Below the pieces are notes generated by a model. That model saw nothing but the letters and a program-made list of their open reading frames with translations. It had not been told where the DNA came from and did not search any database. From a virus (Duplodnaviria > Caudoviricetes): a stretch of 60,801 nucleotides of DNA. Positions 762 through 54,919 of this stretch are shown piece after piece. The position numbers and the translations under genes are program-made. Where the stretch lies: IMG/VR virus record IMGVR_UViG_3300009537_000009, positions 1 to 60,801 of that record; one strand, 5' to 3'. Position 1 is the stretch's first letter. Each line of letters starts with the position of its first letter.

Positions 762-789
762 ATTATAGCACCACTTGACAAAATGTCAA
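762..789 (-). promoter_or_regulatory. Leftward sigma70-type promoter
   Basis: Minus strand TTGACA (789-784), 16-nt spacer, TGcTATAAT extended -10 (TATAAT 767-762). Confidence 0.85.
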
Positions 790-803
790 CCATGAATTAT
801 AAT
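775..803 (+). promoter_or_regulatory. Rightward sigma70-type promoter for the primase-helicase
   Basis: TTGACA 775-780, 17-nt spacer, TATAAT 798-803; ATG at 810. Confidence 0.85.
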
Positions 804-13434: not shown

Positions 13435-13908
13435 ATGTATTTTATGGGGAAGGAAGTGGCTAGTAGACCAAATAAGTATAGGAGAGCCTGGAATCAGGCA
13501 ACCATCCCACTGGTAAGAGAGTTGATGGAGAATGGTGGTTCTATCGTGGAGGCATGTAGAATCATGGGAATTAGCAGGGTGACCCACTATCGGTGGATGA
13601 AATGCCCTACAAAAGCAGCATATAGCCGCGCTATGAGTGATCTTCTGGATGCTTCCGAGGCTTGGTGGATGAGGCAGGGGAGAGAGAATGTTGGAAACAG
13701 AAGTTTTAATACCCAGTTATTCAATCTCAATATGGTCAATAGGTTCAAGTGGAACTCTGCCCAATCAGAACAGACGCGGAACGTCTCCGAGAAGAGGAAG
13801 GTTACTGTCGATATTCGTAAAGCTATCGACGAGTCGGAGGAAAAAAATGAGGAGCAACACGGAGAGGTTATTCCTTTGTTGAAGAAAGTAGTTGACAATG
13901 GGGAATAG
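13435..13908 (+). CDS. Terminase small subunit (putative)
   Basis: HTH GGSIVEACRIMGISRVTHYRW, SEAWW..GR, MVNRFKW; first rightward late gene. Confidence 0.75.
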   Translation: MYFMGKEVASRPNKYRRAWNQATIPLVRELMENGGSIVEACRIMGISRVTHYRWMKCPTKAAYSRAMSDLLDASEAWWMRQGRENVGNRSFNTQLFNLNMVNRFKWNSAQSEQTRNVSEKRKVTVDIRKAIDESEEKNEEQHGEVIPLLKKVVDNGE

Positions 13909-13919
13909 TGTGGTATAAT
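13892..13919 (+). promoter_or_regulatory. Consensus sigma70 promoter of the RNA island
   Basis: TTGACA 13892-13897, 16-nt spacer, TGgTATAAT ending 13919. Confidence 0.9.
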
Positions 13920-13926
13920 GGTCCCA

Positions 13927-14047
13927 GGTTGCGTAGTTTAATGGCAAAACACTAAAAACACTATTTCTACCTATTGCTTTCCAAGCCGCTTGAGATGGTT
14001 TATCATTCGCTAAATGAGTGATGCGGGTTCGATTCCCGCCGCAACCG
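13927..14047 (+). ncRNA. tRNA-like RNA with ~70-nt expanded anticodon region; Y RNA (YrlA)-like candidate
   Basis: Acceptor GGTTGCG/CGCAACC, D arm, T arm GCGGG-TTCGATT-CCCGC, no CCA; inner helix ACTATTTC/GAGATGGT and bulged-C helix TGCTT/AAGC(C)G. Confidence 0.65.
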
Positions 14048-14056
14048 ACTTATTAC

Positions 14057-14131
14057 GGGGGATGGGCAGAGCACCCGGAGAATCCTTGCAAGATTCTAGC
14101 CTGATCAGTTTGAGTCTGATACCCTCCACCA
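14057..14131 (+). tRNA. tRNA-Ala(TGC)
   Basis: GAATC-CTTGCAA-GATTC, G3:U70, ACCA end. Confidence 0.85.
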
Positions 14132-14200
14132 GTTTAGCGTCCGAAGTGTGTAGGTTACCACCAAAGATATTGCTTGATACTCCTATGTACGATCACTTGA

Positions 14201-14276
14201 CGCTCTATCGTATAACGGCTATTATTCCGGACTCTTAATCCGTGTGATCCAGGTTCGAATCCTGGTGGGGCGACCA
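14201..14276 (+). tRNA. tRNA-Lys(CTT)
   Basis: CGGA-CTCTTAA-TCCG, TTCGAAT loop, CCA. Confidence 0.9.
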
Positions 14277-14290
14277 ATCATGGAGGAACT

Positions 14291-14572
14291 ATGCAGTACA
14301 GTTTTCTAATACTGCTTATAACATTTTTGATAATGTTAATCATTCTGATAGTGGATGATTGGCGGAAAACACTGCTTATAGAGGAATATAAGGTACTATC
14401 ACGAGTGTGGTCGCAAGAATCCTCACTGCTGGATGAGTACAGAAAGAAGTCGAGGGTATGGTTACATGGCGACTATCCTATTCTCAAGGATAGCGAGGTC
14501 ACCAAGGAAAGGCGAAGGGTTCTGCACAAGATGGCAGAAGATCGCAGGAAAGGAACTCATAATAGAGCGTAG
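14291..14572 (+). CDS. Membrane-anchored hypothetical protein
   Basis: GGAGG RBS, N-terminal hydrophobic helix; stop codon inside tRNA-Cys. Confidence 0.7.
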   Translation: MQYSFLILLITFLIMLIILIVDDWRKTLLIEEYKVLSRVWSQESSLLDEYRKKSRVWLHGDYPILKDSEVTKERRRVLHKMAEDRRKGTHNRA

Positions 14573-14637
14573 AGGTCGATTGGATAAACGGGTGTCTGCA
14601 AAACACTCACAAGCTGGTTCGATTCCAGTCTACGCTT
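14566..14637 (+). tRNA. tRNA-Cys(GCA)
   Basis: GGTGT-CTGCAAA-ACACT, U73; followed by CCG running into next tRNA. Confidence 0.85.
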
Positions 14638-14639
14638 CC

Positions 14640-14713
14640 GGTCTGTTAGTTTAGTGGTAAAACATTGGTCTGTCTAACCTTTGTCAAGGGTTCGATTCCC
14701 TTACAGATCGCCA
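14640..14713 (+). tRNA. tRNA-Asp(GTC)
   Basis: GGT-CTGTCTA-ACC, G73, CCA. Confidence 0.85.
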
Positions 14714-14719
14714 AATTAC

Positions 14720-14807
14720 GGGGGTGCTGGTATGCGCCTTATCAATTCTTGCTCTATTGAGCCGAAGATACAGGCTTATCTTGGTTCGACTCCAAGTACC
14801 CCCTCCT
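14720..14807 (+). tRNA. Atypical tRNA-like gene, undetermined anticodon (9-nt loop, long variable arm)
   Basis: Acceptor GGGGGTG/TACCCCC, T arm CTTGG-TTCGACT-CCAAG, TCAAT-TCTTGCTCT-ATTGA. Confidence 0.6.
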
Positions 14808-14811
14808 ATAT

Positions 14812-14901
14812 GGATTGTGCAAGTAAGTCAGCCTGGGGCTGAGAACGGCTGTAACCCGTTTCCTTATGGGCATGAGGTTCGATTCCTTCCACGATCCACC
14901 A
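14812..14901 (+). tRNA. tRNA-Tyr(GTA), atypical 8-bp acceptor
   Basis: AACGG-CTGTAAC-CCGTT; GGATTGTG/CACGATCC; A73, CCA. Confidence 0.8.
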
Positions 14902-14973
14902 CCCCTTGTGTTGGGGAAACAACCACCACTCCTAATGGGGGTATTACAGGTTCGAATCCTGTCGAGGGGTCCA
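14902..14973 (+). tRNA. tRNA-Arg(CCT)
   Basis: CCA-CTCCTAA-TGG; CCCCTTG/CGAGGGG; CCA. Confidence 0.8.
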
Positions 14974-14975
14974 AT

Positions 14976-15158
14976 ATGGAAAACAATTCAGGGTACGTCA
15001 AGGTTCTTGAAGAGAGGGCGGCAGAAGCCTCCATGTTCAAGAAAGAGTTGGAGTTTTTGAGATTTTTCTATGAAAGGTCGGATTTCAAGATGGCGATCAT
15101 GGAAGAGTATACCGCTCTAGGACACAAGGTTCCCTATGAATATGATGAGCCTAGCTGA
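14976..15158 (+). CDS. Small hypothetical protein (60 aa)
   Basis: ATG 14976; SD-like GAGGGG lies in tRNA-Arg 3' end; stop inside tRNA-Ile. Confidence 0.6.
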   Translation: MENNSGYVKVLEERAAEASMFKKELEFLRFFYERSDFKMAIMEEYTALGHKVPYEYDEPS

Positions 15159-15222
15159 CTGATAGTCAGAGTGCGCCTGATAAGCGTACTGAAGCAAGGT
15201 TTGATTCCTTGAGGCTCAACCA
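15146..15222 (+). tRNA. tRNA-Ile(GAT)
   Basis: TGCGC-CTGATAA-GCGTA; TGAGCCT/AGGCTCA; ACCA. Confidence 0.85.
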
Positions 15223-15223
15223 A

Positions 15224-15300
15224 GCCGTGGTGGTGGAATTGGGATACACGCCAGTCTTAGAAACTGGTTCTTGAGAGTTCGAGTCTCTCCTGCGGTACCA
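15224..15300 (+). tRNA. tRNA-Leu(TAG), short variable arm
   Basis: CCAGT-CTTAGAA-ACTGG; 5-nt variable region; ACCA. Confidence 0.9.
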
Positions 15301-15305
15301 AATTA

Positions 15306-15383
15306 GTGTCCCTGACGGGAATTGGAATACCTGCCGGGCTTAAAACCCGGTGTTTCTCAGTTCGAATCTGAGTGCGAGTACCA
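15306..15383 (+). tRNA. tRNA-Leu(TAA), short variable arm, poorly paired acceptor (possible pseudogene)
   Basis: CCGGG-CTTAAAA-CCCGG and intact T arm; GTGTCCC vs TGCGAGT pair poorly. Confidence 0.65.
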
Positions 15384-15397
15384 TTCATTGGTGATTT

Positions 15398-15781
15398 GTG
15401 AGACATACAAAGAAGGATTTTGAGATAGACTGGTTTTCGGGTAGTGGTGCTGGCGGACAACATAGAAACAAACACCAGAACTGTTGCCGGATTACTCACA
15501 AGCAAACCGGGTTGAGGGCGCAGTCCACGAGTCACAGGGAAAGGTGGAAGAACCAGCGCGACGCATTCAACCGTTTAGCTGGGATGATAATTGCATCTGA
15601 TGATAAAAAGGAAAGAAGGGATTCCAATCATATTGTCAGAACATACAACTATGTTCGGGGCATTGCCACTGACGGGGTTATCGAAAAACCCTTGCATCCC
15701 GTAATAAACGGTGATATAATGGAGTTTATTGTTAACTCCTTATCTGGCAATAGACCAGATAGATTCACGGGCAGAATGTAA
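15398..15781 (+). CDS. Truncated class I peptide chain release factor-like protein (GGQ peptidyl-tRNA hydrolase domain)
   Basis: SGSGAGGQHRNK...CRITHKQTG...VRTYNY...NGDIMEFI, matching the C-terminal half of RF1/RF2. Confidence 0.9.
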   Translation: MRHTKKDFEIDWFSGSGAGGQHRNKHQNCCRITHKQTGLRAQSTSHRERWKNQRDAFNRLAGMIIASDDKKERRDSNHIVRTYNYVRGIATDGVIEKPLHPVINGDIMEFIVNSLSGNRPDRFTGRM

Positions 15782-15785
15782 CAAT

Positions 15786-15861
15786 GTATGCATAGCTTAA
15801 CCGGCAAAGCCCAAGGATGTGACCCTTGAAGATTCAGGTTCGAAGCCTGATGTATACCCCA
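15786..15861 (+). tRNA. tRNA-His(GTG), no encoded G-1
   Basis: CAAGG-ATGTGAC-CCTTG; C73; base -1 is T. Confidence 0.85.
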
Positions 15862-15862
15862 A

Positions 15863-15938
15863 GCAGTCTAGGCCGATCCGGCGATGGTTCTAGTCTTCCA
15901 AACTAGTGAGGTGGGTTCGACTCCCACAGGCTGCTCCA
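15863..15938 (+). tRNA. tRNA-Gly(TCC)
   Basis: CTAGT-CTTCCAA-ACTAG; U73, CCA. Confidence 0.9.
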
Positions 15939-15942
15939 ATTT

Positions 15943-16013
15943 CCCCCTGCTAATGGATAGAGGCAGGTCTTCTAAACCGGTCCTTGTGGGTTCGAATCCC
16001 TCCTGGGGGTCCA
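15943..16013 (+). tRNA. tRNA-Arg(TCT)
   Basis: GGT-CTTCTAA-ACC; compact D arm; CCA. Confidence 0.75.
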
Positions 16014-16028
16014 TATACAGAGAAAAGA

Positions 16029-16718
16029 ATGGGATTACTAATACCGCCATCTGATGATCCAATGGATACTCAGTGGACTGACTACGAAGCATATATTCCG
16101 TGGTGGAAGGATACTCCTCCCATGGCGAGACATGGCCTCATTACAGGGGAAACACCCAAACATATAGGGCTTGGTTTCAGGAAAACCAACGATCCGAGTG
16201 AACCCTATGTTGAGAGGCTTTTGAATATTCGTGGATTAAATACAGACGGAACCTCGCCCCGTTTTATTGCGGAGGATAATGAGAGTCTGGCAAAGTTCGG
16301 AGCAACAACCCGAATCGAACCCGATAACGCATATGTGATAGGGTCTGCGTATAAAGAAGGTGAGACATATATGCACGAAGCGGCTCATTTTTTTTCGGGG
16401 GACGACAAGGTGGTCGAGAGATTGGAAGATATCGGGATGACCACTACCAAGGCCAAGTCGGGGGAAACGCTGTACAAATGGCCCGGAAAGGATGTATTCA
16501 TACCCGAAGCAGATACAGAACATATGTTGATTGATCTGGAAACTTTTCTCAGAAATGACAATACCCAAAACGCTATGCAAGCTTTTGAAAGGCTTATTGA
16601 ACTTTCCGGTAAACACGACATCAAACTATCGAAAGTGGTGGATGTGTACCACGACATAGTGGGCCTTCTATATGAGATATATCCGGACCTAAAAGAATTG
16701 TCGATGGATGGCCGGTAG
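16029..16718 (+). CDS. Hypothetical protein with HExxH motif
   Basis: MHEAAHF; probable start 16029; stop inside tRNA-Ile(TAT). Confidence 0.7.
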   Translation: MGLLIPPSDDPMDTQWTDYEAYIPWWKDTPPMARHGLITGETPKHIGLGFRKTNDPSEPYVERLLNIRGLNTDGTSPRFIAEDNESLAKFGATTRIEPDNAYVIGSAYKEGETYMHEAAHFFSGDDKVVERLEDIGMTTTKAKSGETLYKWPGKDVFIPEADTEHMLIDLETFLRNDNTQNAMQAFERLIELSGKHDIKLSKVVDVYHDIVGLLYEIYPDLKELSMDGR

Positions 16719-16775
16719 TCATAAGGCAGCTTATATCTGTCTTGGAGCAGGGTTCAACTCCCTGATCGACGACCA
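16699..16775 (+). tRNA. tRNA-Ile(TAT)
   Basis: GGCAG-CTTATAT-CTGTC; TGTCGAT/ATCGACG; ACCA. Confidence 0.85.
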
Positions 16776-16790
16776 TATGTGGAGAGGACG

Positions 16791-16949
16791 ATGAAAGAAC
16801 TGATACAAGAGAGTGAGGAGGGGTTGAGATTCGTACCCCTCGAAGATTTGCTTGAGGCCCTTCATATGCTTAGAGATGACTTCATGCAAATGAAACGCGG
16901 GTACCATGTTACCATAGAGAAATGGATCAAGGAGCTTGATGATGTCTGA
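16791..16949 (+). CDS. Small hypothetical protein (52 aa)
   Basis: GGAGAGG RBS, MKELIQESEEG... Confidence 0.55.
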   Translation: MKELIQESEEGLRFVPLEDLLEALHMLRDDFMQMKRGYHVTIEKWIKELDDV

Positions 16950-17154
16950 GAGGCCACCTGTACTTTGTGGTATCGATGGGGTGTATCATCCCGCTTTTTA
17001 CCGATGTAATCAATTTCGGTTTCGGGGATACGGGATTACGATGATATGTTGCGCCGTATGCAAGGAAGGCTCCCATATCGAGGATGATACAGAAAACTCA
17101 GCTCGTAGGCCGGATATCGAGGCGGCATTCTTACAAAATGCCAGTAGAGGGTGA
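16942..17154 (+). CDS. Small Cys-rich protein
   Basis: AGGAG RBS; CCAVC; 3' end overlaps tRNA-Val. Confidence 0.5.
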   Translation: MSERPPVLCGIDGVYHPAFYRCNQFRFRGYGITMICCAVCKEGSHIEDDTENSARRPDIEAAFLQNASRG

Positions 17155-17174
17155 GATTCCTTCACGAGCTACCA
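17100..17174 (+). tRNA. tRNA-Val(TAC)
   Basis: GCATT-CTTACAA-AATGC; AGCTCGT/ACGAGCT; atypical T loop TGAGATT. Confidence 0.85.
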
Positions 17175-17180
17175 AATAAT

Positions 17181-17259
17181 GGGGATGAGATGGCTCGACC
17201 GATCTTAAAACCTTACGGAAAGGATCGGGACCAGGGATCAAAACCCTGCATCTCCACCA
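17181..17259 (+). ncRNA. Minimal tmRNA-like RNA: tRNA-like domain only, no mRNA-like domain
   Basis: GGGGATG/CATCTCC with G3:U70 and A73-CCA; stemless D loop AGATGGCTCGA; 8-bp P2-like CCGATCTT/AGGATCGG; GAC then CAGGG-ATCAAAA-CCCTG. Confidence 0.8.
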
Positions 17260-17264
17260 TATTT

Positions 17265-17336
17265 TCCCTGTCTGCGGACTCAGTGTGACGGCTACGAACC
17301 GAAATCAGGTCAGTTCAACTCTGGCACAGGGAACCA
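17265..17336 (+). tRNA. tRNA-Arg(ACG)
   Basis: CGG-CTACGAA-CCG; TCCCTGT/ACAGGGA; ACCA. Confidence 0.8.
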
Positions 17337-17337
17337 A

Positions 17338-17411
17338 AGGCCGATAGTTCAACGGCAGAACACTGGGCTTTGAACCCGGTAGTCCTGGTTCGAATCCAGG
17401 TTGGCCTTCCA
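17338..17411 (+). tRNA. tRNA-Gln(TTG)
   Basis: CTGGG-CTTTGAA-CCCGG; canonical arms. Confidence 0.92.
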
Positions 17412-17417
17412 TACATA

Positions 17418-17504
17418 GCTGGCTTGGCAGAGCGGACGAATGCAGGGGTTTTGTAAGCCTCAGTCGAAAGACCATCGTGGGTTCGAATCCTACAGTTAGC
17501 TCCA
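17418..17504 (+). tRNA. tRNA-Thr(TGT) with long variable arm
   Basis: GGGGT-TTTGTAA-GCCTC; GTC-GAAA-GAC arm; G1-C72, C2-G71. Confidence 0.8.
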
Positions 17505-17518
17505 ACCTGAGAGAGAAG

Positions 17519-18166
17519 ATGAGAAAGGGAATATTACTTGTAGTGTTTTTGCTGGGTGGTTGCGGTGTGATGACCGATCAGGGCAGGGTGTCCAAAGAGG
17601 TTTATCGGGCCGAAACGGCACAAAAGCTGTTCGACTCCGCCCAAAAAGCTGATGATGCTTTCGCAAAGGAAAACCCCGTGAGCGGAGTACCGTCATACTG
17701 TAACGGTTCTGTAACAGATGCCCAAGCCGTGGTTTGCGGGATGGCTCAAGCGAACGCTAATCTCTCAGTAGCCCTTGTAAACGCAAACAGGAAAGCCTCT
17801 GTCGCTTATGCTTCACAGATTCTATCTACACAGGCACAAGAAAGAATTGCATTCAAGGACCGTCTGATGAATTTCTTCGGTATCGTGTATTCGACCGAGA
17901 GGGGCTCAAGGAGCCGTTCTACGGGTGATGGGACCAGGGTGGTCATCAATGGGCCAAACGCCCGAGGTAGCGGAGAAGGAGGGGCTTCTGCTGGCAGTCA
18001 GGACGTAAGCCTGAATATCGGTAATGCAAATCAGGTATCTTCGGATGGAAGGACTGGTTTTGCCAACAGGAATAGTACGGTTGACAACCACGACCAATCC
18101 GAGGTTGTGTTCGAACCTGTCCTCGAACCGGTGGTTGACATACCCGAACTACCTGTGATAGAATAA
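17519..18166 (+). CDS. Lipoprotein
   Basis: MRKGILLVVFLLGGC lipobox; probable start 17519. Confidence 0.75.
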   Translation: MRKGILLVVFLLGGCGVMTDQGRVSKEVYRAETAQKLFDSAQKADDAFAKENPVSGVPSYCNGSVTDAQAVVCGMAQANANLSVALVNANRKASVAYASQILSTQAQERIAFKDRLMNFFGIVYSTERGSRSRSTGDGTRVVINGPNARGSGEGGASAGSQDVSLNIGNANQVSSDGRTGFANRNSTVDNHDQSEVVFEPVLEPVVDIPELPVIE

Positions 18167-18173
18167 AGAGTTT

Positions 18174-18248
18174 GGACTTCTGGTGTAGGTGGCCGCACGA
18201 CAGTTTGAAGCACTGTAGGATCAGGCTCGATTCCTGGGGGGTCCACCA
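18174..18248 (+). tRNA. tRNA-Phe(GAA)
   Basis: ACAGT-TTGAAGC-ACTGT; ACCA. Confidence 0.85.
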
Positions 18249-18250
18249 AA

Positions 18251-18325
18251 GCACCGTAAGGCGAATGGCGAGCCAGTAGTCCTTCAAACTATTGTGAGTG
18301 GGTTCGATCCCCACACGGTGTACCA
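18251..18325 (+). tRNA. tRNA-Glu(TTC), C at position 33
   Basis: GTAGT-CCTTCAA-ACTAT; GCACCGT/ACGGTGT; ACCA. Confidence 0.75.
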
Positions 18326-18326
18326 C

Positions 18327-18404
18327 TGTGGGATAGCAATCCGGGTGATCGCAGACGGCTGTTAACCGTCAAGGAGATGAGTTCGAGTCTCATTCCCACA
18401 GCCA
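18327..18404 (+). tRNA. tRNA-Asn(GTT)
   Basis: GACGG-CTGTTAA-CCGTC; G73, CCA. Confidence 0.9.
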
Positions 18405-18409
18405 TTTCA

Positions 18410-18494
18410 GGAAGGTAGGGTGCTGGGCACAAAAACGGTTTGAACCCGTTCCCACTCTTTGGGGTGATCGTTCGATTCGGATTACCTTCCGCCA
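18410..18494 (+). tRNA. tRNA-Ser(TGA), 8/4-type fold
   Basis: AACGG-TTTGAAC-CCGTT; GGAAGGTA/TACCTTCC; long variable arm; G73. Confidence 0.85.
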
Positions 18495-18495
18495 C

Positions 18496-18581
18496 AGTAG
18501 GTTGAGTGCTGGGCACACGACAGTTTGCTAAACTGCCCCACTCCGAAGGGGGTGACAGTTCGATTCTGTAACCTACTGCCA
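18496..18581 (+). tRNA. tRNA-Ser(GCT), 8/4 fold
   Basis: AGTAGGTT/AACCTACT 8 bp, T stem ACAG/CTGT 4 bp; loop TTGCTAA; G73. Confidence 0.85.
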
Positions 18582-18584
18582 TAT

Positions 18585-18659
18585 CAGAGACGACGAGGCT
18601 GGGTCATCTCCGTCCCTTGGAAGGACTGAAGCGCAGTTCGATTCTGCGGTCTCTGACCA
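18585..18659 (+). tRNA. tRNA-Pro(TGG)
   Basis: GTCC-CTTGGAA-GGAC; C1-G72, A73. Confidence 0.85.
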
Positions 18660-18660
18660 G

Positions 18661-18735
18661 AGGGGTGAAACATTTAAGGTGATGTCTCGGTCTTTTAAAC
18701 CGGAAAACAGGGTTCAAGTCCCTGCGCCCCCACCA
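18661..18735 (+). tRNA. tRNA-Lys(TTT)
   Basis: TCGGT-CTTTTAA-ACCGG; ACCA. Confidence 0.85.
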
Positions 18736-18739
18736 GTCA

Positions 18740-18748
18740 TGGTATAAT
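18740..18748 (+). promoter_or_regulatory. Extended -10 promoter
   Basis: TGGTATAAT immediately upstream of the large structured region. Confidence 0.65.
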
Positions 18749-18752
18749 AGAG

Positions 18753-19139
18753 ATAGGCACTCCCTGCCTTAAAATTATGAGCGGCTCACCGTCCGTGTCG
18801 GGAAGAAAAGCGGTTTTAATGAGCGGGTCTTTGACCTCGGACCAGTCCTCCAGAGCGCAAGCAAGTTAGGCGGGGGGCGATAAACAGGGCTATACTGTAA
18901 CACAGTCAGTGACTACGACCAGCTTCGGCTGCTTGGCCTTACGGCCTTGAAGGTAGTGCAGCGTCTCGCGGTACGATAACACGCACCTGATATACGCTCA
19001 CCTTGTGACGGTAACTAGACAACCATAAAGAGTATTCTCTCCCTGTGGTGGAATTCTCGGATCATATGCTGGACTAATATCCCGGCCTATAAACCCCGAC
19101 CAGTCTGGTTACAGTGAAGGAGGTCCGAGCTATGCCTAT
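18753..19139 (+). ncRNA. Large structured non-coding RNA, unclassified (~385 nt)
   Basis: No long ORF; nested long-range helices 18753-59/19133-39, 18836-43/19122-29, 18894-901/19108-15; cUUCGg hairpin 18920-18931. Confidence 0.7.
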
Positions 19140-19170
19140 TTGTGTTGTATTTTTACAACAGGGGGAGTTG

Positions 19171-19353
19171 ATGCAGTGTAAGTGCGGTGGAAGCACGGTT
19201 GACCGTGTGTCTGTCCGAAAGAAGGGGAAGTACAAACTTCTCTATGTCCATTGTGTCGAGTGTACCAGGGTAGGTAATTGGTTGTACCTTGAAGATAACA
19301 AGTTGGCTGCCTCCGGTGAGGATGCCAGAAAGAAATATAGCGCGGTGGTGTAA
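19171..19353 (+). CDS. Small zinc-ribbon protein
   Basis: GGGAG RBS; MQCKCGG...CVEC; stop inside tRNA-Met. Confidence 0.65.
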   Translation: MQCKCGGSTVDRVSVRKKGKYKLLYVHCVECTRVGNWLYLEDNKLAASGEDARKKYSAVV

Positions 19354-19413
19354 AGGCTAACATCTTGGACTCATATTCCTCGGCTGAGAGTTCGATTCTC
19401 TCCTGCGCTACCA
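19339..19413 (+). tRNA. tRNA-Met(CAT) (elongator Met or Ile2 not resolved)
   Basis: GGA-CTCATAT-TCC; AGCGCGG/CTGCGCT; ACCA. Confidence 0.8.
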
Positions 19414-19414
19414 T

Positions 19415-19491
19415 GAGCCGTCATGTTCCAAGGCTGGCGATGAAGTCTCCAAAACTCTATGTGTGGGGTTCGATTCCCTAGCGGCTCGCCA
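19415..19491 (+). tRNA. tRNA-Trp(CCA)
   Basis: AGT-CTCCAAA-ACT; G73, CCA. Confidence 0.8.
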
Positions 19492-40333: not shown

Positions 40334-41697
40334 TGGGATTAGATAGAAATGTTCTTGCCCAAGGTCTGTTGAATATGGGCACTACACTCGGGCAGTCCGT
40401 GATCGCAAACTCTGCTCTTGAGAAAGAGATTGCGATGAAGGAAAGACTGGGTATTTTGGACGCACAGACAAGGCTGGAGCAAGAGAGACTGGTAACTTCT
40501 CGTTCCGAGAATGTTGCAAATATACAGGGTGGATGGAACTTGAAGTCTCAACAAGAGGCTAGTGCTGGAAGCTTGGCTTCAACCAAGGCTGCTGCTGCTG
40601 GAACCCTTGCTGTTCAACAGGAGATGGGTCGTACAGAGATTGAGTTGAAGGGTATGGACAACTCTGGCCTGATGGAAAGATTAAAGCAGTCCGGGCTCAA
40701 CGCGGTTAGGTTGCAGGAAGTTATCAATGGCGGAGACGTTAATCAGATCAGAGAAAACGCAAAGGCCGGTATTGATAGTATGCGTGAAGAGGTAAACCTT
40801 GCTGACAAGCGAGCGAGGCAGGAACATAAAAGGAATCTGGAGTTTACGGCAAATACCGCTGTAGCGAGTGCTGCTGCTGCCATGGATAAGACTCTTACAG
40901 ATACAGCGACCCAACTTACATCAACGATTGAAGAGATGTTGAAGGCTATTGCTGATGCCCGTAGAGGCTTGGACGAAGTAGTGGAGACCCGTGTTGTAGA
41001 CGGCAAGGAAGTAAATGTCACTTATGGTATGTTCTTATCGGAGATGATTGAAGAACGAAGGCAAGTGATGGGTCTTATGATGGGTACGGCAAGATCATCT
41101 TATGAGACCGGACTTGAGGAGTCGTTCGAGAAGAAGGAGTCTGGAGCGGAGATGACTCCAACAGAGAATAAACAGGCTAAAGCTTACGAGCCTATCTTTT
41201 TCAAGAGGCAGTCTGTAGATGCCCAACAGTGGGTTAAGGAGGGAGGAGAGCTTTCCTCCAAGAGGTTGGCCAACTGGAAGAGGGCTGGCTTGAATCCAGA
41301 GGCTATCTTCTCCGCAAGGGATAAGGTCGTCAAGAGTCAGGCTCCGGAGGAAATTGTCAATAAACCACCGGTTAATGATAAACCAAGAAACAAACCACCA
41401 ACTGTTGCTCTGCCTGATCCTGTAAAAACAGAACTGCCCGATATGGCTGGTCTTCTTTACCCAAAAGAAAAGCCAAGGCAGCCCATGCAACCATATAGTA
41501 ACGACTCCAGGGTAGGAGGCTTGCTATCACAGGATAGTGGAGCGCAACAAAGAGAAATAAAGGGAGCGATTTCAAGAATACAGGCTCTTGGTACTGGTCC
41601 GTTGGATGGGGCAAAGGAAAAACAAAGGGAGATTTTGATGGCATTTTTGAGAAACAAGGGCATGACTGACGATCAAATTGCACACATGGTGAAATAA
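40333..41697 (+). CDS. Putative internal virion protein
   Basis: Coiled-coil-rich; precedes giant gene. Confidence 0.6.
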   Translation: MGLDRNVLAQGLLNMGTTLGQSVIANSALEKEIAMKERLGILDAQTRLEQERLVTSRSENVANIQGGWNLKSQQEASAGSLASTKAAAAGTLAVQQEMGRTEIELKGMDNSGLMERLKQSGLNAVRLQEVINGGDVNQIRENAKAGIDSMREEVNLADKRARQEHKRNLEFTANTAVASAAAAMDKTLTDTATQLTSTIEEMLKAIADARRGLDEVVETRVVDGKEVNVTYGMFLSEMIEERRQVMGLMMGTARSSYETGLEESFEKKESGAEMTPTENKQAKAYEPIFFKRQSVDAQQWVKEGGELSSKRLANWKRAGLNPEAIFSARDKVVKSQAPEEIVNKPPVNDKPRNKPPTVALPDPVKTELPDMAGLLYPKEKPRQPMQPYSNDSRVGGLLSQDSGAQQREIKGAISRIQALGTGPLDGAKEKQREILMAFLRNKGMTDDQIAHMVK

Positions 41698-44600
41698 TGG
41701 GTATCAATTACCTGCTTGGAGATACACCAGACTCTGCAAAACCTACCAGAGTCTATCCTTCGTCTACTCCGACAAGTGATTCCGATTTTCTCACTGGCAT
41801 AAATCGCGGAATCAGGCAGACTGCTGCGCTCGGCTATGCCGGTTCGGCTATTGTAGGGGGTGGGCTGAGGGCTATTGGTCTTGAGTCCGCTGGAGCCTCT
41901 CTTGAGAAGTTTGGTATCGAGGGATACCATGACTACATGGAGTCTGCCCAGGATTACAAGGCATCCGTTTCATGGACGGATGTATGGAATTCCGACGGGA
42001 GCTTTCTTGATTGGGCGCAGGGGGTACTGGGGGAACAACTACCCAATATGGCTCTGATGATAGGATCGGGCGGATTGGGGGCCGCGCTCGGTAAGAAGAT
42101 TGTGAGTAAGTATGCTCTCGAAAAGATGGCATCATCCGAACTTATGGAAGCGGCAATTAAAAAGGGCGTGACATGGGGTGCCGGAACAGGCGTCTTCGCT
42201 GCATCCGAAATACTGAACACAGGGGAGATATACGGCTCCATCCTGGAGGAGACTGGACAGGCGAGACCTGGAGAGTCTTTATTGTTTGGTACCGTTGCTG
42301 CTTCTTTGGATGCGTTCACCCCGGTGAGAATCCTAAAGGGGTGGGGATACGGGGCTGATTTCACAGGATTCCTATCGAAAACAATAGCATCCCAACCGTT
42401 ATACGGAAGGGCGCTTGCGGCTGGAATAGGAGGCATGATTCGAGAGGGTACTACGGAGGGAATGCAAGCCCTGATAGAAGCGATGGCTGTTAACTTCGTA
42501 AAACAAACCCCAATGCTTGATTTCTCCGATGATCAATGGACTGAGTTCAAGGAATCTATTGCTGCCGGAGCACTGATGGGTGGTGTATCTGTCGTTTCTC
42601 CAACCCCAGGTGTTCTGCAAGCCACAGACGATGAAGCTGACCTTACCGGAGGAGAAGCCCCGCCTTCAGAAGAGTGGTCTATCGAAAGAACCAACGAAAT
42701 TCTTAACAACTCCGATCCTGAAGCCGGTACTAAAGCACTCGAAGAACTTGGACTGTTTAGGGATATAGGTCTTGGGGAGACGAATGTGATCGGCAGGGTA
42801 TCCGGGAAGGATATTATTCCAACTCCTGACTTTGATTCCATCGGAGATGTGATCCCAGCCAAAAGAACTCTGCCTAAAACAGAGCCAGCCACTAAAACTA
42901 CTCCACTTCAGTTCTCTCCGGTCTCACAAGAAGGGGCACTCGCAAAGGACTTGGTGGGACATCTTCTGTCTGCTAATGAATTAGAATCCAACACTCTACA
43001 GGAAATGAATGCGCCAGTAATGGACGCAATGAAGGCTTCCGATATCAGGCTGACTCCGAAGGGCAGGTTGGATGTTCCCCTGAAGGATAAATATCCCGCT
43101 ATTCCAGAGTATTATGATCGTATGCCGAATGAGGATCGCATACCAATCATTAATATGCTTCTAAGGGAGGAGGGGGAGAAGCTGAAGACTTCCTTCAAGA
43201 CACCCGCGCATTTGCAGGGGCTTCCCACAGAAGAGAAGATTGCAAAGACGAAGAAAGAGTTCGAGTTAGCTTTGCTCAAGAGAGTGGATAAGCGTCTAGC
43301 GGCGGCAGTTGGTAAGACAAGTCCTGTCCAAGAAACCCTATTGGATGCCATCAAAACATCCAGACCTACCACAGTACTTCGTGGCCCGGTGGTGAGGGAG
43401 TTCTCCGAGCCTATCAAGAGAACCCTGAAGAAATCACAGAAGAAAAAACTGAAGAAGTCACAAGAGACTTCTGTGGTTACTCCCACACCTTCCGTTCCGC
43501 TGACTACTATGGGAGAAGGGAGGGCCCCAGTCAATCTGATAGGACAGGAGTCAAGGCCTGGAGTTAAGGTTAAGGGTGAGGTTGTTCCGGAAATCAAGAG
43601 GACAACAACAAAGACATTCTTTAACGCAATGACAGGTAAGCTTGAGACGGTAGAAGGAAAGCAGACACCAGACCTGTCTCAACAGGATGAGTACAACAAG
43701 CTTAACACTGCCTACAAATTTGTGGACAAGCTCGACCGGGACTTGAAGTCTATTATAGGCCGTACAGGGTCGAAACGTCCGGACACTGTTAGTGTTGATA
43801 AGGACGGCAACCCTATTACCGTACCATTGCAGACAACGGATGACGACTTCAAAACCTTCACTCCCGAAGAGGATGCGGAAACAGTGAGGCAGGTTTGGAG
43901 GGATACTCTGGACATTCTAGTGTCATCCGGTCATATGACCAAGGAAGAAGTTGGTGATATGAAGCTTGACCCGACTGTGTTCACCTCTGACTTCTATGAT
44001 ATAAACAAACCTGTTGACTTCCAAGCCAGACCACCTCAAGAAAGAGTTCGTCTACAGAAAACAGGAGAGGCATTAGAGACAATGCGCCGCAACATACTGT
44101 TGGGTGTAAGGTCTGTTGGGCTTGGGTGGAGAACGGTAGAAGTCCGCCCTGGTGAATCAAAGCAGACTGTCGATTCTGTTCTGTCTAAGAATGAAAGGTT
44201 TTATGTGGATGGAAAAATCAAACAGGAGTTTGAATTAGTCACTGCTGATAACACAGACCCGTTCTCTGATGTACGGGTTGTTAGAAAGAAAGATCAGGCC
44301 GTGATGGCGATTGTACCATGGGAGGATGCGAGAATATACCGCTCCTACCACAGGACATTCGAGAACAAGAACTTCATTGTGATGAGGGAGGCTCTTGGTC
44401 GGGGTGATGAACCTTGGGTTGTGCTGGACAAAAGAAGAGATAATGCTGTCGTCGAGAAGTTATATCCATATACAGAAGAGGAGTGGCTCTTCCTTAGAAA
44501 GACGGGCATACTTGATGATGTATACAAGGGAAGGGGATTACCTAAGCATAGTAGACAACGCGAGCCTGTATTCGCTCTTCTTGAGGCATATTCTGATATA

Positions 44601-53254: not shown

Positions 53255-54796
53255 TTAACCCTTTATAAAATCAGATATCACGGCAGGGACTCCCGCATCA
53301 AACCCGACTACATCCATTGCGCCGCCATCCTCCGGATCAGCAATCGTGAATCCCGTAGAGGTCATACCAACCACCACCAACTTGGCGTGGATTCCCATGG
53401 CCGAACGGTATCTTCGTAGCGCCTCCATCGGCTTCATTTTCCCCGCCCATGTTTCATTGTCAGTGTAGACAATGAAGGCATCGTAAGACTTCTTCTCTAG
53501 AAGAGCAACTTGCATCGGAAGAGAACAGTCGGTTGCACCGAACGGTAGTCCATGCACCGCCTTCATAGCTGCATTCAGATTCCACCCACGAGCAATAGGC
53601 AGCTTTGTGATGCTATTACAGAACCCATACACATCCGCACAGTCCTCTACATTCACCGTAACCAGGCTCATGGCGGTAGCAGCCATTCTGACAGACATGG
53701 AACCATTGAACGGAAGCCCCATTGACCCCGATACATCGAGACCAATCATGATACGCTTCCCTGTTGGTTCAACATTCACAAATGCATCATGAAAGGCGTT
53801 ATTGAGCGCGCCCACAATAAGAGCAGAGGAGTTACCCTCCTTCTTATACTCGCTCATTGCAATCAAGACAGACATCGGATGCACCATTGAACCACGGATG
53901 CCCCTCAGCTTCTGCACTACTAGCTCTTCGCACTCACGATTGAAGACACCGTAGTTGCTCATGTTGCGCAGATTACGGATCATTGCAGTCATCGGCATGT
54001 TGGGTAGCATGGCCCTCCACACACCCGCATCCTTCAACACCTCGGTTGACAAATACTCTCTTGGGGTGTGATGGTTTTGCACGAGAAAGTCCACCACCTT
54101 CTCGGGATTGGTCTCGTTGCGGATAGATTCGTATGTGTGAACAGCCTGTGGTGCCTGTGGAGTCACCTTGCCGCCAACCGCCCAACCAAACAACGCATTA
54201 TGTTTTTCGCTGACCGGCTTAACATGGGCGAGGCGCAGTACATCTCTATGCGTCCATCCCTCACGGTTCCGGTACTTGGTCATGCCGAAAGCAAGAGCAT
54301 GTATGTCACGCGAGTACCACTCCCCCACAACCTTACGAATAAGACTGCCCCACTTTCCACCCAACTGCTTGCGGTACTGTAGGAACATGAATAAGTGAGT
54401 AGGAATACGGCAGATATCACCCAGCCTGGAAAGAGCCAAACTCCTAACAGCTACCCTTTTATCCACTGAGGCAACAGCCAGCGCGAATATTTGTGGGTCT
54501 ACCTTGTGGGCCAGTCCGTTTACGTTGACATCCACTATAATGTCGATTGCTCTCTCTGCGTCTGACCTGAGAGCAGTCAAGATGGCCTCATAATTGCCAG
54601 CCACCATCTCCCGCTTCGAGACGTAGAATGTCGCCCCGTCCGCGCCGAGAATAAGAAACCTTCTCAGGCGATCAAATTCATTCAGCCCATAAACAAACCC
54701 ACCCGCGTTGTTCATGACTTCTCGTGGGTCGGAGCGCACCGTTTGTGGCGTCACCCGATGACGATCAATTGCGTAATTCTGCATTTTGCTACTCAT
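53255..54796 (-). CDS. rsr: Ro60 (TROVE + vWA) RNA-binding protein
   Basis: NNAGGF, RLRRFLILG, KYRNREGWTHRDVLRLAH, MP.TA.IRNL, MIDAS DVSGSM, YTDNETW, GFTIADP.D..MDVVGFD. Confidence 0.95.
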   Translation of the reverse strand: MSSKMQNYAIDRHRVTPQTVRSDPREVMNNAGGFVYGLNEFDRLRRFLILGADGATFYVSKREMVAGNYEAILTALRSDAERAIDIIVDVNVNGLAHKVDPQIFALAVASVDKRVAVRSLALSRLGDICRIPTHLFMFLQYRKQLGGKWGSLIRKVVGEWYSRDIHALAFGMTKYRNREGWTHRDVLRLAHVKPVSEKHNALFGWAVGGKVTPQAPQAVHTYESIRNETNPEKVVDFLVQNHHTPREYLSTEVLKDAGVWRAMLPNMPMTAMIRNLRNMSNYGVFNRECEELVVQKLRGIRGSMVHPMSVLIAMSEYKKEGNSSALIVGALNNAFHDAFVNVEPTGKRIMIGLDVSGSMGLPFNGSMSVRMAATAMSLVTVNVEDCADVYGFCNSITKLPIARGWNLNAAMKAVHGLPFGATDCSLPMQVALLEKKSYDAFIVYTDNETWAGKMKPMEALRRYRSAMGIHAKLVVVGMTSTGFTIADPEDGGAMDVVGFDAGVPAVISDFIKG

Positions 54797-54919
54797 GTGA
54801 ATTAAAGGGTTGTAATGTCAAGGTGCGTGAATGGAGTGTACTCAAACACAAGGTTGATAATCCACTCACATCGGACATTACGAAACGTATTATACATCGA
54901 ATCCATGGCGGTGTCAAGC

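What the first reader, a model, noticed from the sequence alone, without database searches (positions are those of the whole stretch)
13892..19491. Candidate phage ribosome-rescue and tRNA-replacement system: TLD-only tmRNA, mini release factor, all-20 tRNA set, Y-like RNA and Ro60
Seen: a single co-oriented island behind a consensus promoter holds 26 tRNAs, a tmRNA tRNA-like domain with no tag ORF (17181-17259), a truncated GGQ factor (15398-15781), a Y-like tRNA mimic (13927-14047) and a large structured RNA. Ro60 is encoded at 53255-54796. Known: tmRNA-SmpB, ArfA/RF2, ArfB and PrfH rescue stalled ribosomes; the Salmonella rsr-yrlBA-rtcBA operon responds to tRNA cleavage; several anti-phage defences cut tRNAs. 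Inference: the phage carries an integrated kit that sustains translation under tRNA/mRNA attack and releases stalled chains without SsrA degradation tagging. I do not know of this combination being described.
Basis: partly seen in the sequence, partly recalled or inferred. Interest (0 to 1): 0.93.

Follow-up and report, generated by a model that had tools for sequence, protein, structure and literature searches.

The report
Phage tRNA island with mini-tmRNA
An uncultured phage carries a promoter-driven block of about 25 tRNA genes that also holds a tag-less miniature of the bacterial ribosome-rescue RNA and a small release-factor fragment; all parts are real, but each is of a kind already known from phages and they mostly occur apart in other phages.

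Summary
The island (13892-19491, + strand) is real. It has a perfect sigma-70 promoter, about 25 credible tRNAs covering all 20 amino acids, a 79-nt tmRNA tRNA-like domain (TLD) with no tag region, and a 127-aa GGQ protein equal to RF1/RF2 domains 3-4. Ro60 is real but lies on the minus strand, 34 kb away.

The "Y-like mimic" at 13927-14047 is a tRNA-like RNA with a 63-nt insert and no Y-RNA features. The "large structured RNA" folds no better than shuffled sequence.

The TLD belongs to the family of the TLD-only tmRNA of mycobacteriophage DS6A. My model hits DS6A at 55 bits. I found 102 distinct phage copies with strong covariation and an invariant G3:U70.

Co-occurrence does not support one integrated kit:
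- the RF-1 domain is in 1 of 50 TLD-bearing records;
- a TLD is in 3 of 50 mini-RF records;
- TROVE is in 0 of 50 and 4 of 50;
- SmpB is in 0 of 50.

This scan reached the same verdict on similar islands in other phages. I rate it a new member of known kinds, of modest interest.

The parts
13892..13919 (+). Perfect sigma-70 promoter (TTGACA-16-TGnTATAAT) heading the tRNA island
   Evidence: 12 of 12 matches, with TG; one of 4 perfect sites in the window, 0.02 expected.
13927..14047 (+). tRNA-like RNA with intact acceptor, D and T arms, a 63-nt branched insert in place of the anticodon loop, and no encoded CCA. Function unknown; not Y-RNA-like by any test run here.
   Evidence: Rfam tRNA 48 bits; YrlA 12.3 bits against a gathering score of 69; fold z = -2.93; the 3' end has no CCA.
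14057..19491 (+). About 25 credible tRNA genes covering all 20 amino acids, nearly all with encoded CCA, interleaved with 8 small ORFs. Also two aberrant tRNA-like genes: 14720-14806, and 15305-15386, a Leu(taa) homologue with a broken acceptor stem.
   Evidence: for the Leu(taa) homologue.
15398..15781 (+). 127-aa stand-alone GGQ protein equal to RF1/RF2 domains 3-4. It has no domain 1 or 2, so no PxT/SPF codon reader.
   Evidence: Pfam RF-1, 2.9e-16; best solved match is RF2 1gqe residues 235-362, E = 1.6e-20; prfA 57 bits (cut-off 400), PrfH 44.9 (cut-off 166.65), ArfB 22.5 (cut-off 100). AlphaFold2 mean pLDDT 84.4; Foldseek top matches are RF1 and RF2.
17181..17259 (+). TLD-only mini-tmRNA. 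It has an acceptor stem with G3:U70, A73 and CCA, a stemless D loop ending GGCUCGAC, an 8-bp P2 hairpin with a 14-nt loop, a GAC linker and a T arm with an unusual AUCAAAA loop.
   Evidence: fold; covariation; the same model hits the DS6A TLD at 55.4 bits; not called as tmRNA by ARAGORN or Rfam. T-loop outlier.
18740..19131 (+). Non-coding stretch behind an extended -10 motif (TGGTATAAT at 18740-18748), upstream of a 73-aa Cys-rich ORF (19132-19353). There is no evidence that it is a structured RNA.
   Evidence: z = -0.08; only a sub-threshold tmRNA_permuted hit (21.6 bits against 47, E 0.27) at 18708-18880, starting in the tRNA-Lys T arm; no + strand ORF of 40 aa or more.
53255..54796 (-). 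Ro60 (Rsr) orthologue with TROVE and vWA domains, in a separate minus-strand unit.
   Evidence: vWA_Ro60 1.7e-59, TROVE 7.3e-28. NCBIfam Rsr 389.6 bits. PHROG 850.
54803..54882 (-). Candidate Y RNA directly upstream of the Ro60 start codon, with the GUCCGA / CUUGAC Ro-binding helix.
   Evidence: Rfam Y_RNA 24.7 bits and the nematode sRNA family ceN72-3_ceN74-2 27.8 bits, both below their gathering score of 38; fold z = -4.11, 0 of 200 shuffles fold as well.
54889..54917 (-). Perfect sigma-70 promoter (TTGACA-17-TATAAT) heading the Y RNA candidate and Ro60.

Best explanation
This is a phage accessory translation island made of separately inherited parts, each of an already known kind.

A perfect host-type promoter drives one polycistronic transcript. 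RNase P and 3' processing would cut it into about 25 tRNAs, a full set. Following published work, the tRNAs most likely keep phage translation going when host tRNAs are ill-matched, degraded or cut by defences.

Two riders sit in the array.

1. A DS6A-type TLD-only tmRNA. It keeps the alanine identity pair G3:U70, A73-CCA, the tmRNA D-loop motif and the T arm. It has a 14-nt loop where the tag-coding region and pseudoknots should be. My committed reading (inferred) has three steps. First, host AlaRS charges it. Second, it binds host SmpB; the phage has no SmpB of its own. Third, it competes with host tmRNA for SmpB and stalled ribosomes, so stalled chains are not given the degradation tag.

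2. A 127-aa release-factor catalytic half (domains 3-4) with no codon-reading domain. This family commonly travels with phage and mycobacterial tRNA arrays. It most likely hydrolyses peptidyl-tRNA without reading a codon. How it reaches the ribosomal A site is unknown.

Ro60 and its own Y-RNA candidate form a separate RNA-surveillance module on the other arm of the genome.

Shown: the anatomy, family membership, covariation and co-occurrence counts. Inferred: charging, SmpB binding, competition with tmRNA, hydrolase activity and expression.
For: TLD family
- A model built from 3 phage copies hits the DS6A TLD at 55.4 bits, E = 7e-15.
- Across 102 distinct phage copies, 96.5% of cells are paired against 68.1% in shuffles, and 19 of 23 pairs show compensatory change.
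- G3:U70 is present in 102 of 102 copies.
- With positions 3-6 and 67-70 left free in the scan, 97 of 97 in-register unique sequences keep G:U, while pair 4:69 varies: GC 87, CG 6, GU 2, non-pairs 2.
[quoted passage not shown] This is in PMC4131195, which cites Mao et al. 2009 (passage). It is repeated in PMC11915505 (passage).
- The window has no SmpB. Neither do 50 of 50 other TLD-bearing records.

Mini-RF family
- 586 homologues of about 130 aa.
- 331 viral stretches encode a relative.
- 41 of the 80 best loci have at least one tRNA within 6 kb, and several have 20-28.
- The order Leu(tag), Leu(taa), mini-RF is shared with L073 and its close relatives L074, L075, L077 and L078, whose mini-RF is only 37% identical.
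- An RF-1-domain CDS is reported as the core gene of one group of tRNA arrays (PMC5966550).

Independence of the parts
- Mini-RF is found in 1 of 122 TLD loci.
- RF-1 is found in 1 of 50 TLD records, and in 1 of 16 that are at least 90% complete.
- A TLD is found in 3 of 50 mini-RF records.
- TROVE is found in 0 of 50 TLD records and 4 of 50 mini-RF records.
- 83 of 122 TLD loci hold no tRNA at all.

Ro60 has its own perfect promoter and its own Y-RNA candidate.
Against: - The TLD and mini-RF lie close together in two phages that share no detectable large terminase. They are 1.4 kb apart here and 0.34 kb apart in L050.
- Each is far commoner in records holding the other (2-6%) than my rough estimate for the whole collection: at least 140 and at least 331 contigs out of 2.9 million. 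That estimate is not corrected for genome size or tRNA content. Some linkage is therefore not excluded.
- The invariant G3:U70 argues that charging matters. [quoted passage not shown]
- This copy's T loop (AUCAAAA) departs from the U54 seen in 99 of 102 family members. It could be a weakened copy.
- Only 4 perfect promoters exist in the genome, and two of them head the island and the Ro60 unit. The two modules are probably switched on together.
- No expression data exist.
Confidence: 0.65

Rival explanations
1. One reading: the TLD and mini-RF are a two-part, tag-free rescue pathway. Ala-TLD with host SmpB takes the stalled chain, and the codon-independent mini-RF then hydrolyses peptidyl-Ala-TLD. 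The tRNA set and Ro60/Y RNA would be further arms of one anti-defence kit.
For: - The TLD and mini-RF are adjacent in two phages with no detectable shared large terminase.
- A TLD is present in 3 of 50 mini-RF records, well above my rough background estimate.
- The invariant G3:U70 suggests the TLD is charged and goes to the ribosome.
- tmRNAs without a coding region persist in organelles alongside an imported SmpB (PMC11915505, passage).
- 5 of 8 island ORFs have their stop codon inside the next tRNA gene. RNase P cutting would therefore leave non-stop mRNAs that need rescue without degradation.
Against: - 121 of 122 TLD loci have no mini-RF nearby.
- 49 of 50 TLD records have no RF-1 domain.
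- 47 of 50 mini-RF records have no TLD, and in two of the three that do the genes lie 25-34 kb apart.
- TROVE is in 0 of 50 TLD records and 4 of 50 mini-RF records.
- L050, the other phage with both parts, has 0 of 2 ORFs ending inside a tRNA. Arrays without a TLD (L015, L081) have 4 each.
- Ro60 is 34 kb away on the other strand.
Confidence: 0.12
2. The TLD is a pure decoy that soaks up SmpB off the ribosome. The mini-RF and the odd tRNA-like genes are neutral hitch-hikers of a mobile tRNA array with no role of their own in infection.
For: - PMC4131195 (passage) reports inhibition of tmRNA by a TLD-like molecule whether or not it can be charged.
- This copy has an atypical T loop.
- Three tRNA-like genes in the island are visibly defective.
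Against: - G3:U70 is kept in every copy while the neighbouring pairs covary.
- The mini-RF family keeps 23 invariant columns across 30 sequences at 46-60% identity to the window's protein and has 586 homologues. That argues for purifying selection.
Confidence: 0.15
3. The 13927-14047 RNA is the Y-RNA-like partner of the phage Ro60.
For: - It is tRNA-like, as bacterial YrlA modules are (PMC4201824, passages).
- It is the first RNA behind a perfect promoter.
- It lacks an anticodon loop and CCA, so it is unlikely to decode.
Against: - YrlA model score is 12.3 bits against a gathering score of 69, on the T arm only.
- Its acceptor stem is open, formed by the 5' and 3' ends. [quoted passage not shown]
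- I saw no GUCCGA/CUUGAC helix in it.
- It lies 39 kb from Ro60 on the other strand.
- A candidate with the Ro-binding helix sits right beside Ro60.
Confidence: 0.05

Closest known systems
TLD-only ('CDS-less') tmRNA of mycobacteriophage DS6A (JN698994.1, 28478-28560)
   Same: The architecture is the same: GGGG acceptor with G3:U70, a D loop ending UCGAC, a short P2 hairpin with an AAAACC...GG loop, a T arm, and no tag frame or pseudoknots. The model built without DS6A scores it at 55.4 bits. It is named in PMC4131195 and PMC11915505 (passages).
   Different: DS6A's copy stands alone between protein genes and ends CUCCACUA with a GGCAC linker. The window's copy sits inside a tRNA array, ends ACCA and has an odd AUCAAAA T loop. 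Inhibition of tmRNA was tested only for the DS6A-like molecule (Mao et al. 2009, a paper I did not see).
tmRNAs without an mRNA-like region in jakobid mitochondria and some plastids
   Same: The tmRNA is reduced to the tRNA-like domain while SmpB is retained by the cell (PMC11915505, passage; Jacob et al. 2004 seen only in its reference list).
   Different: Those are organelle genes, the only tmRNA of their compartment, and presumably act in rescue. The phage copy acts beside an intact host tmRNA.
[quoted passage not shown]
   Same: A small stand-alone RF-1-domain CDS inside a dense tRNA array. The same paper lists RF-1, Pth and tmRNA genes in arrays (passages).
   Different: The host group is different. 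I did not compare sequences with the mycobacterial proteins.
ArfB (YaeJ) / ICT1 and PrfH, the known stand-alone GGQ rescue factors
   Same: A GGQ catalytic domain without a stop-codon reader, so codon-independent peptidyl-tRNA hydrolysis is the natural guess.
   Different: There is no ArfB-type basic C-terminal tail. The C-terminal half aligns with RF1/RF2 domain 4. NCBIfam scores are ArfB 22.5 bits (cut-off 100) and PrfH 44.9 (cut-off 166.65). The genome has no RtcB.
Ro60 (Rsr) with adjacent Y RNAs in bacteria and phages (Chen et al. 2014, PMC4201824)
   Same: A TROVE plus vWA protein with a small structured RNA encoded beside it on the same strand. The paper reports likely Y RNAs near Ro60 in more than 250 bacterial and phage species (passages).
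   Different: The window's candidate keeps both strands of the Ro-binding helix. The paper says this is the case for D. radiodurans and metazoan Y RNAs, whereas only the 5' strand is recognisable in the Salmonella and M. smegmatis RNAs. It scores on Rfam Y_RNA (24.7 bits), not on YrlA. Two of five other phage Ro60 loci give sub-threshold YrlA hits instead.
Phage tRNA sets that counter tRNA-targeting defences
   Same: Large phage-encoded tRNA sets read as protection against host tRNA cleavage (PMC10264068, PMC11555353; I saw only the search listing and the start of each abstract).
   Different: Nothing in this window was tested against any nuclease. I did not analyse the anticodon-loop changes.

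Membership tests
tmRNA (full-length, Rfam RF00023 / RF04321) | tRNA-like domain: acceptor stem with G3:U70, A73-CCA and a T arm, plus a D loop ending UCGAC. The D-loop motif is recalled from memory and was later seen in all 102 family members. | tested here: met
tmRNA (full-length, Rfam RF00023 / RF04321) | mRNA-like domain with a resume codon, tag reading frame and stop codon, plus pseudoknots. | tested here: not met
   Only a 14-nt loop lies between the P2 strands. ARAGORN calls no tmRNA. No Rfam tmRNA match covers 17181-17259 at E up to 5.
TLD-only tmRNA (DS6A type) | Both halves of the TLD joined by a short capped P2 helix, 64-90 nt in all, homologous to the DS6A element. | tested here: met
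   The R1 model built from the window, L004 and L008 scores DS6A at 55.4 bits. Covariation holds over 102 copies.
TLD-only tmRNA (DS6A type) | Binds SmpB and inhibits host trans-translation. | not testable with these tools
   Known only from citations of Mao et al. 2009 in PMC4131195 and PMC11915505.
Class I release factor RF1/RF2 | GGQ domain 3 and C-terminal domain 4. | tested here: met
   The profile aligns with RF2 residues 235-362. Pfam RF-1 matches. Foldseek's top matches are RF1 and RF2.
Class I release factor RF1/RF2 | Domain 1 and the codon-reading domain 2 (PxT or SPF motif). | tested here: not met
   The protein is 127 aa and starts at the equivalent of RF2 residue ~235. NCBIfam prfA scores 57 bits against a cut-off of 400.
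ArfB | GGQ domain plus a basic C-terminal tail that probes the empty mRNA channel; NCBIfam NF006718. | tested here: not met
   22.5 bits against a cut-off of 100. The C-terminal half aligns with RF domain 4. No chain named ArfB is among the 45 solved sequences matched.
PrfH | TIGR03072 equivalog, and pairing with RtcB. | tested here: not met
   44.9 bits against a cut-off of 166.65. There is no RtcB in the genome.
YrlA / Y RNA (for 13927-14047) | Match to the Rfam YrlA or Y_RNA model, a Ro-binding helix, and a position next to Ro60. | tested here: not met
   YrlA 12.3 bits against 69. It lies 39 kb from Ro60 on the opposite strand. Its acceptor stem is open, unlike YrlA.
Y RNA (for 54803-54882, minus strand) | A terminal helix with conserved GUCCGA / CUUGAC strands, encoded beside Ro60. 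| tested here: met
   Alignment to Rfam Y_RNA. It lies 6 nt upstream of the Ro60 ATG. Fold z = -4.11.
Y RNA (for 54803-54882, minus strand) | Reaches the Rfam gathering score. | tested here: not met
   24.7 bits against 38. E = 0.2 over 10.8 kb and 0.0064 over 341 nt.
Ro60 / Rsr | TROVE domain followed by the Ro60 vWA domain. | tested here: met
   NCBIfam Rsr scores 389.6 bits, below the equivalog cut-off of 900.

The most novel reading that the evidence does not exclude
TLD-only mini-tmRNAs are a large class of phage RNAs, always chargeable with alanine, that the papers I could search mention only through DS6A. In this phage and a few others the TLD works with the array-borne mini release factor as a tag-free rescue route. 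Ala-TLD with host SmpB takes the stalled chain, and the codon-blind GGQ protein frees it. This would protect phage proteins whose mRNAs lose their stop codon when the neighbouring tRNA is cut out, as for 5 of the 8 island ORFs.
Probability: 0.12. Interest if true: 0.75.

Novelty: new member of a known kind. Interest (0 to 1): 0.35.

Why it matters
If the parts act as I read them, this phage both supplies its own decoding RNAs and interferes with the host's main ribosome-rescue and protein-tagging pathway. That makes it another example of phages reshaping translation.

The wider point came from the follow-up rather than the window. Tag-less tmRNA domains occur in well over a hundred uncultured phage contigs, with the alanine identity pair never lost. 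The papers I could search name only one phage example, DS6A. ARAGORN, which was used for the one survey of phage tmRNAs that I read (PMC9004378), did not call this copy.

A cheap test would settle what these RNAs do: charging, SmpB binding and a non-stop reporter in E. coli. The claim of a dedicated multi-part kit should not be carried forward without such data.

Tried and rejected
Suppressor tRNAs or stop-codon recoding as the reason for a release-factor gene: no CTA, TTA or TCA anticodon was called, and long ORFs are intact under table 11. Rejected.

A split or permuted tmRNA using the 18740-19131 stretch: the only Rfam hit there is tmRNA_permuted at 21.6 bits (gathering 47, E 0.27), and it starts in the T arm of tRNA-Lys. 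Rejected as chance.

The TLD as a phage attachment-site remnant of host ssrA: rejected, because both the 5' and the 3' halves are present and pair with each other.

Close relatives of this phage, for comparing the 13927 RNA and the 18740 stretch:
- The large-terminase search gave only a 4.2-kb contig at 79% identity and one contig at 44% identity without tRNAs nearby.
- The single metagenome scan gave the same 4.2-kb contig again. That contig has a protein ORF where the window has tRNA-Met and tRNA-Trp.
- The two RNAs therefore could not be tested by comparison.
- blastn of the island against isolated phages matched only tRNAs among the 30 records shown, out of 157.

One search used a pattern with one N too many. 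It still found a further TLD lineage with a bulged T stem.

In 4 of 122 TLD loci ARAGORN calls a longer 'tmRNA' ending at the TLD's 3' end, with unusual tags. I did not examine these further.

Sequencing runs: none was listed, and no RNA holder was listed.

Supplements are closed. Supplemental Tables S1/S2 of PMC4201824 (lists of phage YrlA RNAs) and Table S4 of PMC5966550 (arrays with tmRNA) may bear on how new the Y candidate and the combination are.

'Not in print' rests on searches only.

Full report
WHAT THE WINDOW IS

The window is a whole IMG/VR virus record of 60,801 bases, rated 100% complete.

- Genes on the left arm run mostly leftwards.
- At 13435 a small-terminase-like gene starts the rightward block.
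- The island follows. After it come a sulfotransferase, the large terminase (PHROG 38) and structural genes up to 51185.
- A leftward block from 51302 holds a phosphoesterase, DUF3310, Ro60 and a ribonucleotide reductase.

THE ISLAND

The promoter at 13892-13919 matches the consensus 12 of 12, with TG before the -10. Only four such perfect sites exist in the genome, against 0.02 expected by chance.

tRNA calls:
- ARAGORN at default settings tRNAs, all on the + strand between 14201 and 19413, and no tmRNA.
- Rfam at gathering level gives 13 matches, all to the tRNA family.
- Relaxed ARAGORN adds Ala(tgc), Trp(cca), Arg(tct) and Arg(acg).
- A probable Tyr(gta) at about 14812-14899 is not called even at -ps60. 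It aligns with tRNA-Tyr of L073 and of Microcystis phage Mwe-JY26 through the anticodon loop, variable arm and T arm.

Three genes are tRNA-like but defective:
- 13927-14047 has perfect acceptor, D and T arms, 63 nt in place of the anticodon loop, and no CCA.
- 14720-14806 has a weak anticodon stem.
- 15305-15386 is a homologue of tRNA-Leu(taa) of L073. By my reading of the alignment, 3 of its 7 acceptor pairs are broken.

That leaves about 25 credible tRNAs for all 20 amino acids. Nearly all encode CCA.

THE MINI-tmRNA

The sequence at 17181-17259 folds as follows:
- a 7-bp acceptor stem with G3:U70;
- 11 unpaired bases ending GGCUCGAC;
- an 8-bp hairpin with a 14-nt loop;
- a GAC linker;
- a 5-bp T stem;
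- A73-CCA.

Neither ARAGORN nor any Rfam tmRNA family reports it.

Pattern scans of IMG/VR:
- A first strict pattern found 5 more contigs.
- A mis-spaced pattern found 4 more, of another lineage.
- A pattern leaving positions 3-6 and 67-70 free found 120, again at the limit.

The covariance model R1 was built from the window, L004 and L008. It has 23 pairs, 9 of them with compensatory change among just three sequences. It scores the published TLD-only tmRNA of mycobacteriophage DS6A at 55.4 bits. The window's RNA is therefore a member of that kind.

I aligned 102 distinct copies to the model, taken from 100 sources: the window, the DS6A record and 98 of my TLD loci, with exact duplicates left out. 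Results:
- 96.5% of cells pair, against 68.1% in shuffles.
- 19 of 23 pairs show compensatory change.
- Sliding the partners by 1-3 columns drops pairing to 45-56%.
- G3:U70 is kept in 102 of 102 copies.

Most copies were found with patterns that fix G1, G2, C71, C72, A73 and CCA, and in three of the four scans G3, G4, C69 and U70 as well. In the scan that left 3:70 free, 103 of 148 unique strings had at least 6 of 7 acceptor pairs. Of those, 97 have G:U at 3:70. The other 6 are the same RNAs read two bases out of register. Pair 4:69 does vary.

The window's T loop (AUCAAAA) is an outlier: 99 of 102 copies have U at its first position.

THE MINI RELEASE FACTOR

- Pfam RF-1 matches at 2.9e-16.
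- A profile of 30 family members aligns with RF2 residues 235-362, that is domains 3 and 4, at E = 1.6e-20. The 45 solved sequences matched include C12orf65 and PrfH at lower scores, and none named ArfB.
- NCBIfam puts it below the cut-off of every release-factor model: prfA 57 of 400, PrfH 44.9 of 166.65, ArfB 22.5 of 100.
- The AlphaFold2 model is confident (mean pLDDT 84.4, pTM 0.48). Foldseek ranks RF1 and RF2 first, with E near 1e-6 and low TM of about 0.44.
- It is not a broken gene. 586 proteins of 69-223 aa match at E up to 0.001, out of 594 candidates. 23 columns are invariant.
- 331 of 397 candidate viral stretches encode a relative.
- Of the 80 best viral loci, 41 have at least one tRNA within 6 kb, and several have 20-28.
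- The order Leu(tag), Leu(taa), mini-RF is shared with L073 and its close relatives L074, L075, L077 and L078.
- This matches the published picture of RF-1-domain genes inside tRNA arrays (PMC5966550, passages).

Ro60 AND Y RNA

The frame at 53255-54796 is open only on the minus strand. It carries TROVE and the Ro60 vWA domain.

Directly upstream on the same strand lies a perfect TTGACA-17-TATAAT promoter (54917-54889). It is followed by an 80-nt RNA whose ends form the GUCCGA / CUUGAC helix of Y RNAs:
- Rfam Y_RNA scores 24.7 bits and the nematode sRNA family ceN72-3_ceN74-2 scores 27.8 bits. Both are below their gathering score of 38.
- It folds far better than shuffles: z = -4.11, 0 of 200 as good.
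- Of five other phage Ro60 loci, two have sub-threshold YrlA hits (36-45 bits against 69) upstream of Ro60.
- Y RNAs beside Ro60 in phages are published (PMC4201824, passages).

THE 'LARGE STRUCTURED RNA'

The only long non-coding stretch is 18740-19131, behind TGGTATAAT. Its minimum free energy equals that of shuffles (z = -0.08). Its only Rfam match is a sub-threshold tmRNA_permuted hit (21.6 bits against 47, E 0.27) at 18708-18880, which starts in the T arm of tRNA-Lys. No relative was available for covariation. I cannot support it.

IS IT ONE SYSTEM?

Starting from TLD-bearing phages:
- 83 of 122 loci hold no tRNA at all, and 24 have one within 300 nt.
- A mini-RF profile finds the protein in 1 of 122 loci, namely L050.
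- Among 50 whole records, 16 of them at least 90% complete, RF-1 is in 1. That record is again L050's, which I had reached through the mini-RF search in the first place.
- In the same 50 records SmpB is in 0 and TROVE in 0.

Starting from mini-RF-bearing phages:
- The model finds a TLD in 1 of 80 loci within 6 kb.
- It finds a TLD in 3 of 50 whole records. Two of these lie about 25 and 34 kb from the mini-RF, and one is a weaker match of 35.8 bits.
- TROVE is in 4 of 50 records.

The window itself has no SmpB, RtcB or Pth.

L050's phage has no detectable homologue of this phage's large terminase, so the adjacency arose in two distant lineages. That suggests a loose association, probably through shared residence in translation islands. 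It does not show an obligate pair.

Earlier follow-ups in this scan reached the same verdict on other phages.

STOP CODONS INSIDE tRNAs

Five of the 8 island ORFs end inside the next tRNA gene. By a mechanical count this is 6 of 8 here, against 20 of 68 in 17 other phage arrays. However, L050 has 0 of 2, and arrays without a TLD have up to 4. The feature does not track the TLD.

VERDICT

- The interpretation as one integrated, undescribed kit is not borne out.
- The best reading is a tRNA island carrying two known kinds of rider, plus a separate Ro60/Y-RNA module.
- The most interesting residue is the size and uniformity of the TLD-only family in phages. In the papers I could search it is represented only by DS6A.

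Noticed in passing
window 54803-54917, minus strand: A perfect sigma-70 promoter followed by an 80-nt RNA with the GUCCGA/CUUGAC Ro-binding helix, ending 6 nt before the Ro60 start codon. This is a better Y-RNA candidate than the one in the finding. It keeps both strands of the Ro-binding helix and matches Rfam Y_RNA rather than YrlA.
   Followed up: partly
I aligned 102 distinct sequences. All have G3:U70, and 48 of 102 share a UAAR...CC motif in the P2 loop. ARAGORN and Rfam miss the window's copy.
   Followed up: partly
window 14291-19353: Five of the 8 ORFs inside the tRNA array (ending at 14572, 15158, 16718, 17154 and 19353) have their stop codon inside the downstream tRNA gene. RNase P cleavage would therefore remove the stop codon. 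The same happens, less often, in other phage arrays (20 of 68 ORF ends).
   Followed up: partly
window 15224-15781 and L073 5827-6350: The gene order tRNA-Leu(tag), tRNA-Leu(taa), mini-RF is shared with a group of contigs carrying 28 tRNAs, whose mini-RF is only 37% identical. In the window the Leu(taa) copy has lost acceptor-stem pairing.
   Followed up: partly
window 16029-16718; L002 2-388: A 229-aa island ORF with no family match carries an HExxH motif (MHEAAHF). The 79%-terminase relative L002 has a different HExxH-bearing ORF just upstream of its sulfotransferase. These may be metallopeptidases.
   Followed up: no
window 762-803: Two overlapping, divergent perfect TTGACA-N-TATAAT promoters. 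They are the other two of the four perfect sites in the genome.
   Followed up: no
L096 1562-1638 and 5108-5183; L214 8646-8723 and 9437-9509: Some phage contigs carry two TLD-only genes a few kb apart.
   Followed up: no
L102 2976-3318, L122 4100-4442, L145 5905-6228, L184 2640-3138: ARAGORN calls a longer tmRNA with an unusual tag peptide ending at the same 3' end as the TLD-only match. These may be false calls, or real tmRNAs with a nested TLD.
   Followed up: no
window 41697-51185: A single 3162-aa ORF at the end of the structural block.
   Followed up: no
window 17519-18166: A 215-aa ORF inside the tRNA array that starts with a lipoprotein-like signal (LLGGC). It has no family match.
   Followed up: no
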